Sequence record: MT682705.1
Reading direction: 5' to 3' (one strand)
Source of the DNA: Escherichia phage vB_EcoS_SP8
Length of the DNA stretch: 57,585 bases
This document shows, piece by piece, positions 53,157 to 57,585 of this stretch (position 1 is its first letter; the number at the start of each line of letters is the position of its first letter). Under the pieces are notes generated by a model. That model saw nothing but the letters and a program-made list of their open reading frames with translations, was not told where the DNA came from and did no database searches. The translations under genes and the position numbers were made by a program.

Positions 53157-55126
53157 GAAAAGACGCGATTGGGTTTTTCTGGACGGATTTACCTCCCGCT
53201 AAGAAAGAGAAGAAACAGAAAGTAAAACGTCAACCAGTTGAAAGGGTATGGGAACGCCCAGACTACCTTCCAGGTCTTGATGCAGCAATGCGTTTTGCAG
53301 CTAATGATCCGCGTATGACAGACGGTGAATTAGTGGAAATGTATTTTGCACAAGAAACGTTCGTATACGATATCGAATGTTATAAGAATTATTTTCTTGT
53401 GGCGTTTAAAGGGGTTAAGTTCGGTAAGGTTTATTATCTAGAAATGACTGCCGGTCAGACACTTGACACGGAAAAATATGAATGGATAATGAAGAACTTT
53501 CGTACCGTTGGTTTCAACTCAAGAAACTACGATAATACGATGACATTCCTTGCCATTGCTGGTTTAACTGTTGACAAGCTAAAAGAAGCAAGTGACAGGA
53601 TGATCCAGGAAGAGTGGGCTCCGTGGGACATTCTTAACAGTTTTGGGGTAAAACAGTTTTGGATTGACCACATTGACGTTCAAGAAGTAGCTCCGGGCTT
53701 CGGTTCGTTGAAGCTGTATGGTGGCCGTATGCACATGCAGAAGCTCCAGGACTTACCATTCCCACCACATTGGGCGTTATCCGTAGAACAGATTGCTATT
53801 GTGCGCTTCTACTGTATTAACGACCTTGATACAACAATGGCTCTGTTTAACTCACTGGAAGAGCAAATCCATCTACGTGAGATTATGAGTGAAGAGTATA
53901 AAGTAGATCTTCGCTCTAAATCCGATGCACAGATTGCAGAAGCTGTAATCCGCCATGAAATGAAGGAAATGCTGGGCTTCGTACCACAGAAGGGTATGGT
54001 GGAAGTTGGCAGAACCTTTAGGTACAATCCTCCAGTGTGGTTAGGTTTCCAAACGCCACTAATGAAGTCCGTATTTCAGGTTGTGCTTGATAGTTACTTC
54101 CGAGTCGCAGAGGATGGTAAAATTAAGCAACCATCGACAATGAACTCTCTGAAGTTTACAATCAATCAGACAACTTACAACATGGGTATCGGTGGTCTGC
54201 ACTCATGCGAAGAGTTAATGGAGATTGTACCATCTGAAGATGAAGAGATGTGGGATGCTGACGTAACGTCATACTACCCGATCTGTATCATTAACCAGCG
54301 ACTATATCCTGAGCACCTGGGCCCGCGCTTTATAGATATTTTCGTTAAGATCGTAGAACGACGTATTGCAGCTAAGATGGCTCATGACGATAAGACCTCA
54401 CAGACTCTTAAGATCGTTATTAACGGTTCTTATGGTAAGTTCGGTTCACCGTTCTCTATTCTGTATGCACCGCATCTTATTATTCAGACCACATTGACAG
54501 GTCAGTTGGCTCTGCTTATGCTCATTGAAACACTAGAGCTTAACGGCATTCAGGTCGTTAGTGCTAACACGGATGGTATCGTTATTAAGCCTTGCAAAGC
54601 TAAGAAGCAATTAATGACGGATATCATTAAGTGGTGGGAAGAAACAACTGGCTTTGAAATGGAGTTGAACCAATACCTGCGTCTTAACTCTGCAAACGTC
54701 AACAACTACGTCGCAATCAAAGCAGATGGTAAAGCCAAGCGTAAAGGTTGGTTCGCAGAGACAGGTCTAGCTAAGAACGCGGAAGGTGAGATTATTATGG
54801 ATGCTGTGGTCAACCTTCTCCGTGACGGTACACCAATTGCTAAAACTATCACAGAGTGTCAGGACATTCGTAAGTTTGTTTGTATCAAGACAGCTAACGG
54901 TGGCGCTGCATGGAATAGTGAGCCATTGGGTAAAGTCGTTCGCTGGTATTATACAAAAGAGGAAGTACCTGAGATACTAATAGTCAAGAGTGGTGGTCGT
55001 GTCGGTAAGACAGCAGGGGGTAAACCTATGATGGAACTCACTGACCAGTTACCGCCGGATCTCAACCACGAAGTGTACATAGCTAAAGCGGAAAAATTGC
55101 TGGAAAAACTCGCATACGCCGCTTAA
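53153..55126 (+). CDS. DNA polymerase, family B-like
   Basis: Exo I-like YDIECY; motif A DVTSYYP; motif B KIVINGSYGKFG; motif C SANTDGIVI. Confidence 0.7.
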   Translation: MRKDAIGFFWTDLPPAKKEKKQKVKRQPVERVWERPDYLPGLDAAMRFAANDPRMTDGELVEMYFAQETFVYDIECYKNYFLVAFKGVKFGKVYYLEMTAGQTLDTEKYEWIMKNFRTVGFNSRNYDNTMTFLAIAGLTVDKLKEASDRMIQEEWAPWDILNSFGVKQFWIDHIDVQEVAPGFGSLKLYGGRMHMQKLQDLPFPPHWALSVEQIAIVRFYCINDLDTTMALFNSLEEQIHLREIMSEEYKVDLRSKSDAQIAEAVIRHEMKEMLGFVPQKGMVEVGRTFRYNPPVWLGFQTPLMKSVFQVVLDSYFRVAEDGKIKQPSTMNSLKFTINQTTYNMGIGGLHSCEELMEIVPSEDEEMWDADVTSYYPICIINQRLYPEHLGPRFIDIFVKIVERRIAAKMAHDDKTSQTLKIVINGSYGKFGSPFSILYAPHLIIQTTLTGQLALLMLIETLELNGIQVVSANTDGIVIKPCKAKKQLMTDIIKWWEETTGFEMELNQYLRLNSANVNNYVAIKADGKAKRKGWFAETGLAKNAEGEIIMDAVVNLLRDGTPIAKTITECQDIRKFVCIKTANGGAAWNSEPLGKVVRWYYTKEEVPEILIVKSGGRVGKTAGGKPMMELTDQLPPDLNHEVYIAKAEKLLEKLAYAA

Positions 55127-55160
55127 TAAAAAGTGGGCCAATACGTTTGTACTGGCCCAC
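55124..55160 (-). terminator. intrinsic terminator for the tail-fibre gene (minus strand)
   Basis: stem GTGGGCCA / TGGCCCAC; followed on the minus strand by UUUUUAUU; lies between convergent pol and fibre genes. Confidence 0.45.
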
Positions 55161-55279
55161 AATAAAATGCCCTAAAATGCCGCACGTTGCCTCTGCTTAT
55201 TCTTCTTTTTCTTGTTTTTTATTTGATTCTTGGATGCCTAGCACAGCAATACGTTGTGCAATATCAACTTGTTGCTGAG

Positions 55280-57469
55280 TTAACTTTCCAGCGTTGTTGG
55301 TTTGTTGAGTAACGCCGCTACCGCCGCCTTAAGATCTGCAATTTCAGATTTCAGTGTTTCGATCTCCTCTTGTTGCTTGTCAACTTGATCACTTATTTCG
55401 TTGAATGCGTTAACCAAAAGAGCAGTAACCCCGCCATAGCTAACACCTAAATATTCAGAATCTGAAACCTTGTAAACCGCTTCCGGCAGAACTGTTTGCA
55501 CATCTTGAGCGATTACACCAGCCTCCTCCGAATATATAGAATGTTCATCTTCATAAAGATTACTGCGCTTAAAGTAAGTGTAACCCTTGATTGACTTCAC
55601 TTTTTCTCTAGCGCTCTTAATCTCCTTCAAGTTTGCTTTCAGTCTAATATCTGACGTACTGACCCATTGAACACATGAGGCGTAACCAGCTCCATTAAAT
55701 GTGTAAATCGCACTCCTTACATTAAAACGAGCCTCGCAATCTCCACTGCTATATCTGGCAACATCAAGACCAGCAACCCAATCATAACCCCACCGAACGG
55801 CCTTAAAGATGTTTGAGGCTGTATCATCGCCTGGCAACTCAACAAGAAGACCAGACGCTCGATCCCTCCATTCAACAAAAGCACCTCCAGATACTTGACC
55901 GCCAATTAGAGCATTACCGCCACCAATTCTAGATCCTGAAACTCTAATGCCATTTGCATTATTATCAATAGGCCATATGTTTAAAAGACCGTTAAGATGA
56001 AGGTTTTGATGATCAAATGAGGCAACATTTGTACCATTACAAAAAACCTGCAACACTCCGTTACCGCCTTGCTTAAATCCAGTGCCGCTATCACCTATAA
56101 CTAACGAATTAGTCCCAAGTGAATTTGTAATGCCTCTACCAATTGTTATTGTATTGTAATTTATGGCGTTTCCGCTTTCGTCAAATTGATAATAGTTTGT
56201 GTCTCCACCTTCTCTTGTTACATGTATTGTTGCATAAGCAGTACCACCTAGAATTTCATTGTAGATCCTTGAGTATGAAAGTTGCACACCTTCTGCGTTC
56301 TTATTTCTAAGGTAAAGAATGCCTGATGATTCGCCGTTGTTGTTATCAAGATGTACACCCAAGAACACAGGAATATGATTTGTCGCAAGCCCTAAAATGT
56401 GCCTTACTCCATCTGGAGTTGTTGCACCTGTACCACCTGAAGATATAGGAAGTGGAATAAATCCAACATTACCTTCTTCCGTTGAATAAACACCCCAAGA
56501 CGATTCACTTATTGTTATGTATTTTTCTCTTCCGGGAGAGAATAACACAGTTTCATTAGGATACTGCTCCAACCTGTCTACACGAATATTTTTTCTGGAG
56601 ATTTCTACGTTAAAAAGATCCGAAAGATTATTTTCTTTTAGCAATGATTTACCAATAATACCTTCAGCTTTTCCAGCAGCCACTTCAGCACGACCAGCGT
56701 CTGTAGATGCACTTTGTGCGCTACCAGCGGCATTGCCAGCCTGTTGTCCTGCTTCGGTAGCACTATTACTTGCTTGTACAGCGGAAGCAGCAGCAGCGTC
56801 TTTTAGCGCGGTAGTTTCGGACACAGCAGCGTCTTTAATTGCTTGCGTCTCGCTTACTGCGCTATTCTTAATACCCTGTGTGTCTACTTTTAACTGCTCA
56901 ACGTTAGATTTTAAACCTTGAATTGTGGTTACAGCTTGTGATGCAGTGTTAGCAGAACCGGCAGCGCCCGCCTGTGCTTGTCTAGCAGCGTCTTCACTAG
57001 CTTTAGCATCATTTTTATAGACAAGTGCATCCGAAGCGGATTGAGCAGCTGAAGCCTTACTATTGCGAGCGTCAGTAGCATCCGCGTTTGCTGCCGCAGC
57101 AGAGCGGCCAGCTTGCAAAGAGTATTCTTCAGAAGCAGCCACAAGTTGTTGAACTTGTTTGATAACATCTGGTGTTAGTTCTTCTTCCACCCAATTAACA
57201 AGATAACCATTAAGTGACCCATCTGGACTATCTGCATATAGCACAATTTCTCCAGCCTTATATGGTTCTTTTCCTTGAGGGCCCACTATAACCACATAGT
57301 GTCCTGGGTTCACTGTGATATTATATGCACCTTGAGAATCTGTACGGAATATCGCTTCGCTACTACCTAACACTATGAGTGTATTACTTCTTGCTATCAA
57401 GGATACGGTTGCATTAACAATAGGTTTATTCAAACCATCTGTTAGGATACCATATAGACGAATTGTCAT
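55280..57469 (-). CDS. tail fibre protein with C-terminal intramolecular chaperone (peptidase S74-type) domain
   Basis: 729-aa ORF; Ala/Ser/Gln-rich repetitive central region; C-terminal STSDIRLKANLKEIKS... matches the self-cleaving chaperone module of phage fibres; RBS AGAGGTAAA. Confidence 0.6.
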   Translation of the reverse strand: MTIRLYGILTDGLNKPIVNATVSLIARSNTLIVLGSSEAIFRTDSQGAYNITVNPGHYVVIVGPQGKEPYKAGEIVLYADSPDGSLNGYLVNWVEEELTPDVIKQVQQLVAASEEYSLQAGRSAAAANADATDARNSKASAAQSASDALVYKNDAKASEDAARQAQAGAAGSANTASQAVTTIQGLKSNVEQLKVDTQGIKNSAVSETQAIKDAAVSETTALKDAAAASAVQASNSATEAGQQAGNAAGSAQSASTDAGRAEVAAGKAEGIIGKSLLKENNLSDLFNVEISRKNIRVDRLEQYPNETVLFSPGREKYITISESSWGVYSTEEGNVGFIPLPISSGGTGATTPDGVRHILGLATNHIPVFLGVHLDNNNGESSGILYLRNKNAEGVQLSYSRIYNEILGGTAYATIHVTREGGDTNYYQFDESGNAINYNTITIGRGITNSLGTNSLVIGDSGTGFKQGGNGVLQVFCNGTNVASFDHQNLHLNGLLNIWPIDNNANGIRVSGSRIGGGNALIGGQVSGGAFVEWRDRASGLLVELPGDDTASNIFKAVRWGYDWVAGLDVARYSSGDCEARFNVRSAIYTFNGAGYASCVQWVSTSDIRLKANLKEIKSAREKVKSIKGYTYFKRSNLYEDEHSIYSEEAGVIAQDVQTVLPEAVYKVSDSEYLGVSYGGVTALLVNAFNEISDQVDKQQEEIETLKSEIADLKAAVAALLNKPTTLES

Positions 57470-57585
57470 TTTTACCTCTTATCTGTAAAATTAATAGATA
57501 TTTCAGGGCATACAAATATGGTAAATTAAATTAGAATATAAAACAATATTATCTATCGTCTTTAACCACATTATTTGGAGTGATT

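What the first reader, a model, noticed from the sequence alone, without database searches (positions are those of the whole stretch)
55280..57469. Tail fibre with self-cleaving intramolecular chaperone domain
The C-terminal 120 residues begin with S-D-I-R-L-K-A-N-L and match the pattern of the auto-proteolytic chaperone module found in phage fibres and tailspikes, preceded by a long Ala/Ser/Gln-rich repetitive shaft. The gene is transcribed separately from the main tail module with its own terminator. It is a likely host-range determinant.
Basis: partly seen in the sequence, partly recalled or inferred. Interest (0 to 1): 0.4.

Follow-up and report, generated by a model that had tools for sequence, protein, structure and literature searches.

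The report
Lateral tail fibre with self-cleaving chaperone
This is an ordinary lateral (side) tail fibre gene of a Nonagvirus-type coliphage that carries a well-known built-in folding chaperone, which very probably cuts itself off after assembly; it is correctly identified but not surprising.

Summary
The ORF is real: window 55280..57469, minus strand, 729 aa. Pfam finds a lambda-Stf-type N-terminal anchor (PF08400, 79 bits) and a C-terminal Peptidase_S74 chaperone domain (PF13884, residues 606-666, 50 bits, E 2.7e-13), both above gathering cut-offs.

SDIRLKANL starts at Ser606, leaving a 124-residue C-terminal piece. Ser606, Asp607, Arg609 and Lys611 are invariant in 61 distinct homologous modules. 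They align with the mapped cleavage sites of T5 pb1 (Thr1263^Ser1264, Lys1269) and S16 gp37 (S^SDRRIKK). The predicted cut is Thr605^Ser606: 77.1 kDa gives 63.4 + 13.8 kDa.

- The Ala/Ser/Gln-rich coiled-coil shaft (101-275) does not abut the chaperone; a 330-residue Gly/Asn-rich tip lies between.
- A strong terminator exists (55160..55133), but separate transcription is not shown.

The window is a permuted Nonagvirus genome. The gene is mosaic. Residues 1-284 are Nonagvirus-type. Residues 345-729 are 90-96% identical in DNA to fibres of a Tequintavirus (T5-like) and a Drexlerviridae (T1-like) phage. It lacks one 64-residue GGTGA-terminated unit that its closest relatives have.

Verdict: interpretation supported; a new allele of a well-known kind; low interest. 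Cleavage and receptor remain untested.

The parts
55280..57469 (-). Complete lateral tail fibre gene (729 codons plus stop TAA at 55280-55282)
   Evidence: ORF list and sequence; PF08400 + PF13884; PHROG tail fibre families, best phrog_14572 E 2.9e-164
57170..57469 (-). Residues 1-100: N-terminal anchor, lambda Stf-like beta-sandwich that attaches the fibre to the tail
   Evidence: PF08400 residues 1-134, 79.1 bits; CarboxypepD_reg 5-81; matches PDB chain 9e7m_Ta 'Tail fiber protein' residues 1-91, E 1.4e-12; 95-100% identical in contigs of 55-61 kb
56645..57169 (-). Residues 101-275: Ala/Ser/Gln-rich shaft, probably a trimeric alpha-helical coiled coil
   Evidence: 45-62% A+S+Q; autocorrelation peaks at lags 7, 11 and 14; no DNA tandem repeat; helical nature is inferred, this part was not modelled
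56423..56644 (-). Residues 276-349: one ~64-70-residue unit ending in GGTGA; junction between the Nonagvirus-type proximal half and the exchangeable distal cassette
   Evidence: ChristophMerian similarity ends at residue 284; the SE1, PNJ1902 and tiwna distal matches start at residue 345; closest relatives have two such units and homologues have 1-3
55655..56422 (-). Residues 350-605: Gly/Asn-rich beta-structured distal tip, the presumed receptor-binding region
   Evidence: 25-35% G+N over residues ~400-540; mostly beta strands in the model, pLDDT about 45-89; residues 449-490 align with the mature part of S16 gp37; profile match to DT57C L-shaped fibre chain 8hqz_d; no Pfam family
55283..55654 (-). 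Residues 606-729: intramolecular chaperone (Peptidase_S74) ending in a long helix (about 678-721) that would form the trimeric coiled coil
55652..55657 (-). Codons Thr605-Ser606: predicted scissile bond, with Ser606 as the nucleophile
   Evidence: Aligns with T5 pb1 Thr1263-Ser1264 (PMC4690869), S16 gp37 S^SDRRIKK (PMC7917993; alignment) and the first residue of 3GUD; Ser invariant in 61 modules
55637..55639 (-). Codon Lys611: predicted general base of the Ser-Lys pair
   Evidence: Five residues after the Ser, as in T5 pb1 Ser1264/Lys1269; invariant
55133..55160 (-). Intrinsic terminator hairpin downstream of the fibre gene; its T-run overlaps the stop codon of the convergent DNA polymerase gene
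   Evidence: 12-bp stem, 7 G-C pairs, then TTTTTATT; predicted in the MFE and centroid folds, z -2.5 for the 166-nt region
57470..57585 (-). 116-bp AT-rich upstream region with ribosome-binding site AAGAGGT; shared divergently with the gene at 1..966
   Evidence: Sequence; 100% identical over 146 bp in ChristophMerian and SE1; no convincing sigma-70 promoter for the minus strand

Best explanation
The gene encodes the lateral (side) tail fibre of a Nonagvirus (Queuovirinae) siphophage. Three chains assemble into one fibre. The N-terminal Stf-like domain (1-100) anchors it to the tail tip region. Residues 101-275 form a coiled-coil shaft. Residues 276-605 form the beta-structured distal tip that binds a host surface receptor. 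By analogy with T5-like fibres this is most likely a specific O-antigen or other surface glycan, bound reversibly as the primary receptor. The last 124 residues are an intramolecular chaperone. Its C-terminal helices trimerise first and bring the three chains into register for folding of the tip. Once the tip is correctly folded, Ser606, activated by Lys611, attacks the Thr605-Ser606 peptide bond. The 13.8-kDa chaperone is released and is absent from the virion, leaving a 605-residue (63.4 kDa) mature fibre with its distal end unmasked. Shown here: the domain architecture, the conserved catalytic motif, homology to proven self-cleaving modules, and the mosaic origin. Inferred: that cleavage happens, trimer formation, the receptor class, and the attachment point on the tail.
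Against: No experimental data exist for this protein. The trimer could not be modelled, so the upstream 'folding sensor' residues (Arg/Asp in T5 and K1F) could not be located. Foldseek E-values are weak (best 0.075), and the tip is modelled at only moderate confidence. The receptor class rests on analogy alone. The BASEL paper itself says O-antigen binding has never been directly demonstrated for the related small siphoviruses, and all known hosts of the type phage 9g lack O-antigen.
Confidence: 0.85

Rival explanations
1. It is an enzymatic tailspike or depolymerase (such as the K1F endosialidase, after which the Pfam family is named) that degrades a capsule or O-antigen, rather than a non-enzymatic fibre.
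For: PF13884 was first described in endosialidases and capsule depolymerases (discussion of PMC4690869). A profile built from the full-length homologue alignment hits Klebsiella-type 'Depolymerase' chains 7VZ3, 7VYV and 7LZJ.
Against: Those depolymerase hits fall on profile positions 37-220. These come from the N-terminal overhang of Drexlerviridae-type homologues, not from any part of this protein (alignment A2). The tip alone (276-605) matches no Pfam family even at E up to 1. It is only 330 residues and Gly/Asn-rich, too short for a typical beta-helix depolymerase. PHROG matches are tail fibre families.
Confidence: 0.05
2. The S74 module is present but is not cleaved in this protein; it remains part of the mature fibre as a structural cap.
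For: Cleavage was not tested here. Proteolysis in this family depends on correct folding of the upstream trimer and on sensor residues that could not be checked.
Against: All motif residues tied to catalysis (Ser606, Lys611, plus Asp607 and Arg609) are intact and invariant across the family. Every characterised relative reached by the profile is processed (T5 pb1, S16 gp37, GA-1 gp12). In T5 the uncleaved form masks receptor binding, so retention would probably be deleterious.
Confidence: 0.06
3. The fibre is as described, but its tip binds something other than O-antigen, for example LPS core, enterobacterial common antigen, capsule or an outer-membrane protein.
For: The receptor was not determined. 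The same tip cassette circulates in phages isolated on E. coli K-12, which lacks O-antigen (tiwna). Some Queuovirinae need an intact LPS core (PMC8594841). The closest solved relative of the module, S16 gp37, belongs to a fibre that recognises a protein receptor through a separate adhesin.
Against: The characterised siphophage fibres of this architecture (T5 pb1, DT57C and DT571/2 LtfA/LtfB) bind O-antigens. The extreme allelic diversity of the locus fits a hypervariable glycan target.
Confidence: 0.25
4. It is the central fibre or terminal receptor-binding protein that triggers DNA ejection, not a lateral fibre.
For: It is the largest fibre-like protein apart from the J-like protein, and it lies near the tail tip genes.
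Against: A separate J-like tip protein (1000..3651, PF09327 + PF24489) is present, and a gene at the published 'bona fide RBP' position lies downstream of it (1..966). The N-terminus is the side-tail-fibre anchor PF08400. The syntenic gene is annotated as the lateral tail fibre in ChristophMerian.
Confidence: 0.03

Closest known systems
[quoted passage not shown]
   Same: Siphophage lateral fibre with a C-terminal about 130-residue S74 chaperone, a Thr^Ser scissile bond and Lys five residues downstream. It is non-essential on rough hosts and binds O-antigen as a primary receptor. The profile of tip plus module matches 8hqz_d at E 8.8e-19. A Tequintavirus, PNJ1902, carries residues 345-729 at 96% DNA identity.
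   Different: Much shorter (729 against 1396 or 1076 aa). The N-terminal anchor is lambda Stf-type rather than T5-type. The match to T5 pb1 itself is marginal (4uw8, E 0.75), so the tip is not the T5 'bullet' domain.
Salmonella phage S16 long tail fibre distal subunit gp37 (PDB 6F45)
   Same: The closest solved relative of the chaperone module (E 1.4e-22). Cleavage at S^SDRRIKK aligns with T^SDIRLKA. A stretch of the mature part also aligns (residues 449-490). It is the best Foldseek hit.
   Different: S16 is a T4-like myovirus, and release of the chaperone exposes a docking site for a separate adhesin, gp38 (PMC7917993). No gp38-like gene adjoins this fibre.
K1F endosialidase and Bacillus phage GA-1 gp12 C-terminal intramolecular chaperone domains (PDB 3GW6, 3GUD)
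   Same: These are the founding members of Peptidase_S74, with the same SDxRxK motif. The 3GUD chain starts at the residue aligned with Ser606.
   Different: The client domains are an enzymatic tailspike and a neck appendage, not a fibre tip. Sequence similarity is weak (3gud E 6e-4; 3gw6 not reached by the profile).
Lateral tail fibres of other Nonagvirus phages (ChristophMerian Bas19, SE1, 9g)
   Same: Same locus, same 5' end and upstream region (100% over 146 bp), same anchor and shaft (91-97% DNA identity). SE1 shares the tip and chaperone at 96%. ChristophMerian also ends in an S74 domain.
   Different: ChristophMerian's distal half is unrelated after residue 284. SE1 has one extra 64-residue unit, and its record splits the gene into two ORFs. 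Phage 9g is described as having a separate cognate chaperone gene for its side fibre (PMC4276943).
Bacteriophage lambda side tail fibre Stf
   Same: Homologous N-terminal anchor domain (PF08400; 9e7m_Ta E 1.4e-12), followed by an Ala-rich shaft.
   Different: From general knowledge, not tested here: lambda Stf needs the separate assembly chaperone Tfa and has no S74 module.
Eukaryotic myelin regulatory factor (MyRF) ICA domain (PDB 7DC3)
   Different: A membrane-bound transcription factor. The aligned residue in the crystallised chain is not Ser (the alignment shows 'paDlRaKe').

Membership tests
Peptidase_S74 / C-terminal intramolecular chaperone domain (PF13884) | Profile match above the curated threshold | tested here: met
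   50.4 bits against a gathering score of 22, E 2.7e-13, residues 606-666 covering profile positions 1-58 of 58
Peptidase_S74 / C-terminal intramolecular chaperone domain (PF13884) | Catalytic Ser with Lys five residues downstream (SDxRxK), at the start of the module | tested here: met
   S606-D-I-R-L-K611. It is invariant in 61 distinct modules and aligns with the T5, S16 and GA-1 sites
Peptidase_S74 / C-terminal intramolecular chaperone domain (PF13884) | Located at the extreme C-terminus, about 110-135 residues, ending in a long helix able to form a trimeric coiled coil | tested here: met
   124 residues. Homologues have 106-135. The model has a helix at residues about 678-721. The same region gives weak hits to coiled-coil families and GCN4 trimers
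Peptidase_S74 / C-terminal intramolecular chaperone domain (PF13884) | Fold of the solved chaperone domains | tested here: inconclusive
Peptidase_S74 / C-terminal intramolecular chaperone domain (PF13884) | Upstream trimeric beta-structure with Arg/Asp 'folding sensor' residues from a neighbouring chain | not testable with these tools
   This needs a trimer model or structure; only single-chain prediction was available
Peptidase_S74 / C-terminal intramolecular chaperone domain (PF13884) | Actual autoproteolytic release and dependence of folding on the module | not testable with these tools
   Experimental; predicted products are 63.37 and 13.76 kDa from a 77.11-kDa precursor
Lambda Stf-like side/lateral tail fibre (PF08400 phage_tail_N) | N-terminal anchor domain | tested here: met
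   79.1 bits against a cut-off of 26.6, residues 1-134 covering the full profile; 9e7m_Ta E 1.4e-12
Lambda Stf-like side/lateral tail fibre (PF08400 phage_tail_N) | [quoted passage not shown] | tested here: met
   J-like protein at 1000..3651 (PF09327, PF24489); synteny with ChristophMerian's annotated lateral tail fibre
Lambda Stf-like side/lateral tail fibre (PF08400 phage_tail_N) | Physical location as three lateral fibres on the virion; reversible binding to a primary receptor | not testable with these tools
   Needs electron microscopy and adsorption assays
Enzymatic tailspike / depolymerase | Recognisable glycan-degrading catalytic domain (beta-helix lyase/hydrolase, sialidase, esterase) | tested here: not met
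   No Pfam family on residues 276-605 at E up to 1. The depolymerase hits of profile A2 lie in columns absent from this protein.

The most novel reading that the evidence does not exclude
As in phage S16, whose gp37 is the closest solved relative of this module, release of the chaperone might expose a docking surface for a separately encoded adhesin. The candidate would be the neighbouring, divergently transcribed DUF6453 protein (1..966), which is currently assumed to sit on the J-like tip. The lateral fibre would then present a second, protein-specific binder instead of binding the receptor itself. The evidence does not exclude this, but it argues against it. The DUF6453 allele is 96% identical in ChristophMerian, whose fibre tip is unrelated. 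The same tip cassette also occurs in T5-like and T1-like genomes with different neighbouring genes.
Probability: 0.03. Interest if true: 0.45.

Novelty: new member of a known kind. Interest (0 to 1): 0.12.

Why it matters
The practical value is modest. The gene is the likely determinant of which surface glycan, and so which strains, this phage adsorbs to first. The clean module boundaries are at about residue 284 and at the GGTGA motif at 345-349, and the distal cassette carries its own folding chaperone. These boundaries show where the fibre could be swapped to retarget host range without supplying a separate assembly factor. The 90-96% DNA identity of the cassette across Nonagvirus, Tequintavirus and Drexlerviridae is another example of recent exchange of receptor-binding modules between siphovirus families. 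None of this is new in kind. Self-cleaving chaperones in fibres have been known since 2007-2010, and the hypervariability of this locus in Queuovirinae was described in 2021.

Tried and rejected
1. Single-sequence AlphaFold of residues 276-729 gave mean pLDDT 37.7 and was unusable. It was replaced by an MSA-based run.
3. NCBIfam gave no family.
4. Tandem Repeats Finder found nothing in the gene, so the 'repetitive' shaft is a periodic low-complexity coiled coil, not a DNA repeat array.
5. The sigma-70 promoter scan of 54800-57585 found no more sites than shuffles do (9 against 7.2 +/- 2.7). The only minus-strand site near the start overlaps the start codon, so no promoter is claimed.
6. The depolymerase hits of profile A2 (7VZ3, 7VYV, 7LZJ) were rejected as irrelevant. 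They map to N-terminal columns contributed by Drexlerviridae homologues.
7. The default BLASTP alignment to P0001 (74% identity, scattered gaps) was misleading. Ungapped comparison shows 97% and 88% identity on either side of a single 64-residue unit difference.
8. The DT57C structure paper has no text on chaperone cleavage, and the Pam3 paper had nothing decisive on S16 cleavage.
9. The Rfam scan of the whole window gave no hits.
10. I looked for a separate tail-fibre assembly gene downstream. Only 153 bp and no plausible ORF lie between the stop codon and the polymerase gene.
Full report
**1. What is there**

Window 55280..57469 holds one long ORF on the minus strand: 729 codons, ATG start, preceded by AAGAGGT. 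The string SDIRLKANL begins at Ser606 (codon 55652-55654), and 124 residues follow to the C-terminus. Pfam gives three matches above their curated thresholds:
- PF08400 'Prophage tail fibre N-terminal': residues 1-134, 79.1 bits against 26.6.
- PF13620 CarboxypepD_reg-like: residues 5-81.
- PF13884 Peptidase_S74 'Chaperone of endosialidase': residues 606-666, 50.4 bits against 22, E 2.7e-13.

Of the 25 PHROG families listed, 24 carry a tail fibre, tail or baseplate label and one has no known function; the best is phrog_14572 at E 2.9e-164. From composition alone, the bare motif S[DE]x[RK]xK would be expected 0.027 times in this protein. The match is therefore not a chance pattern.

**2. Anatomy**

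Composition, profiles and an MSA-based AlphaFold model divide the protein into five parts.

| Residues | Part | Main evidence |
|---|---|---|
| 1-100 | Stf-like beta-sandwich anchor | Aligns with PDB chain 9e7m_Ta 'Tail fiber protein', E 1.4e-12 |
| 101-275 | Ala/Ser/Gln-rich shaft | 45-62% A+S+Q; 7-, 11- and 14-residue periodicity (z 3.9, 3.1, 4.3); one 11-residue tandem; no DNA tandem repeat |
| 276-349 | One unit ending in GGTGA | Junction between the two halves of the gene |
| 350-605 | Gly/Asn-rich, mostly beta-stranded tip | No Pfam family; residues 449-490 align with the mature part of S16 gp37; tip plus module matches DT57C L-shaped fibre chain 8hqz_d, E 8.8e-19 (PMC10713586 for the entry) |
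| 606-729 | Chaperone module | Ends in a roughly 44-residue helix; pLDDT 76-87 |

**3. Is the chaperone module a working member of the family?**

Among the 120 best homologues, 84 carry the motif within their last 220 residues. The released pieces would be 106-135 residues long. In 61 distinct modules, some only 21-35% identical to this one, eight residues are invariant: S606, D607, R609, K611, G651, A654, Q655 and P662.

A profile of 14 diverse modules finds these solved structures:
- S16 gp37 (6F45), E 1.4e-22.
- MyRF ICA (7DC3), E 2.5e-13.
- A tail fibre in 8JOV, E 2.2e-11.
- The DT57C L-shaped fibre (8HQZ), E 3.8e-11.
- The GA-1 neck appendage chaperone (3GUD), E 6e-4. Its crystallised chain starts 'SDERHK', exactly on Ser606.
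- T5 pb1 (4UW8), only marginally, E 0.75.

Published work fixes the chemistry. In T5 pb1 the Thr1263-Ser1264 bond is cut and Lys1269 activates the Ser. S1264A blocks cleavage, and the uncleaved protein no longer competes with phage for adsorption (PMC4690869). In S16 gp37 the cut is DLNVS^SDRRIKK, releasing the last 113 residues (PMC7917993). Transposed here, the scissile bond is Thr605^Ser606 with Lys611 as the base. The 77.11-kDa precursor would give a 63.37-kDa mature fibre and a 13.76-kDa chaperone.

**4. Genomic context**

The window is a circular permutation of a complete Nonagvirus (Queuovirinae) genome. It is about 94% identical over 22 kb to phages BRET, JenP1 and HdSG1, and syntenic with ChristophMerian (Bas19) and SE1. 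The gene order is as follows:
- tape measure and downstream tail genes, ending with the J-like tip protein (1000..3651, minus strand);
- a DUF6453 gene (1..966, plus strand);
- the lateral fibre gene (minus strand);
- the DNA polymerase gene (plus strand, convergent with the fibre gene).

The 146 bp spanning the fibre's upstream region and first codons are 100% identical in the three phages.

A strong terminator for the minus strand lies at 55160..55133: a 12-bp stem followed by TTTTTATT. It also marks the boundary with the convergent early region.

Whether the fibre has its own promoter is open:
- No convincing sigma-70 site lies upstream.
- The hairpin at 967-990 between the J-like gene and the DUF6453 gene has a good T-tail only on the plus strand.
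- The 9g paper treats the morphogenetic region as a single late transcription direction.

**5. Mosaic origin**

Comparison at the DNA level shows the following.

| Phage | Family or genus | Fibre residues matched | DNA identity |
|---|---|---|---|
| ChristophMerian | Nonagvirus | 1-284, nothing beyond | 91% |
| SE1 | Nonagvirus | 1-195, 218-284 and 345-723 | 90-97% |
| PNJ1902 | Tequintavirus (T5-like) | 207-349 and 345-729 | 89% and 96% |
| tiwna | Drexlerviridae (T1-like) | 345-683 | 90% |

At the protein level, the anchor and shaft travel with contigs of 55-61 kb. The tip and chaperone travel with contigs of about 50 kb and 104-113 kb.

The closest full-length relative is P0001 (793 aa). 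Without gaps it matches at 340/349 up to the GGTGA motif and at 336/380 after it, once a 64-residue second unit is skipped. Homologues have one to three such GGTGA-terminated units. This allele is therefore a one-unit version of a known fibre, with the join at a short repeated motif. The pattern fits the published description of this locus: conserved at the far 5' end, hypervariable beyond, and proposed to bind O-antigen (PMC8594841).

**6. How it most likely works**

This is a trimeric lateral fibre. Its distal cassette folds with the help of its own C-terminal chaperone, which is then removed by a Ser-Lys self-cleavage that unmasks the receptor-binding end.

The receptor is most likely a specific surface glycan bound reversibly as a primary receptor, as shown for T5 pb1 (O8/O9 polymannose) and for DT57C and DT571/2 LtfA/LtfB (O22-like, O87, O81). 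This last step rests on analogy. The BASEL authors say it has not been directly shown for small siphoviruses.

Terminal receptor recognition is expected to lie elsewhere, in the J-like protein and the gene at the 'bona fide RBP' position.

**7. Rivals**

- An enzymatic tailspike is unlikely. No catalytic domain is found, and the depolymerase hits of the broad profile belong to columns absent from this protein.
- An uncleaved, degenerate module is unlikely because the catalytic residues are intact.
- A non-O-antigen receptor remains a real possibility.
- A role as the central fibre is contradicted by the anchor type and by synteny.

**8. Novelty and score**

S74 chaperones in phage fibres and spikes are textbook, and precomputed Pfam annotation already marks them in most of the listed full-length homologues that carry the same N-terminal anchor domain. 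ChristophMerian's different allele has one too.

The exact sequence is not in the collections searched: the best DNA match covers 75% of the query at 96% identity, and the best protein is P0001 as described above. It is therefore a new member, an allele, of a known kind. Interest is 0.12.

Noticed in passing
window 56423-56644 (residues 276-349); compare P0001 residues 350-413, L003 (PNJ1902) and L002 (SE1): The fibre has one roughly 64-residue unit ending in GGTGA, where its closest relatives (P0001, SE1, PNJ1902) have two in tandem and other homologues have one to three. The difference is a clean in-frame 64-residue (192-nt) indel placed exactly at the repeated GGTGGTACAGGTGC / GGTGA motif. 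This suggests unequal recombination that changes fibre length. The unit also has lower G+C (35.6%) than the rest of the gene (41.6-44.5%).
   Followed up: yes
window 1-966 (+): The opposite-strand gene between the J-like tip gene and the fibre gene encodes a DUF6453 protein (439 bits). It is 96% identical to bas19_0020 of ChristophMerian. [quoted passage not shown] This phage may therefore also target LptD. SE1 annotates the homologue as a 'membrane protein'.
   Followed up: partly
window 8872-8881 (-): A single occurrence of CCCTTTTTTT lies at the junction of ORFs 8868..9296 and 8485..8823 (minus strand). This is the slippery sequence reported for phage 9g to program a -2 frameshift in the tail assembly chaperone G/T pair (PMC4276943).
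   Followed up: partly
window 54650-54723 (-): ARAGORN calls a tRNA-Ala (TGC) antisense inside the DNA polymerase coding sequence. Rfam's gathering-threshold scan of the whole window finds no tRNA or any other family, so this is probably a false positive.
   Followed up: partly
L002 (Salmonella phage SE1, NC_042025.1) 3072-5385: The orthologous fibre gene in the SE1 record is annotated as two overlapping ORFs ('tail protein' 429 aa and 'tail fiber protein' 354 aa) in different frames. This could be a frameshift in the record (a sequencing error) or a real pseudogenisation or frameshift. The window's gene is intact.
   Followed up: partly
window 967-990, between the stop codons of the 1..966 (+) and 1000..3651 (-) genes: A 9-bp-stem hairpin (TAAACGGGG-CATGTA-CCCCGTTTG) fills the 33-bp gap between the convergent DUF6453 and J-like genes. 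It has a T-rich tail only on the plus strand, so it may stop the DUF6453 transcript but not necessarily read-through from the J-like gene into the fibre gene.
   Followed up: partly
L001 (ChristophMerian) 6548-8449 and PMC4276943 (phage 9g): Alleles at the same Nonagvirus fibre locus use different folding solutions. ChristophMerian has an unrelated tip but also a (divergent) S74 module at residues 515-565. The type phage 9g is described as having a separate cognate fibre chaperone gene. The space between the fibre gene and the DNA polymerase gene also varies: 153 bp here, two small ORFs in ChristophMerian, and four genes in SE1.
   Followed up: partly
whole window: The window appears to be a complete, circularly permuted Nonagvirus genome (57,585 bp) that starts at the DUF6453 gene. 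It is about 93-95% identical over 22 kb to phages BRET, JenP1, JenP2 and HdSG1, whose records annotate the 7-deazaguanine (archaeosine) DNA-modification genes in the matching region. That identity is near the species boundary.
   Followed up: partly
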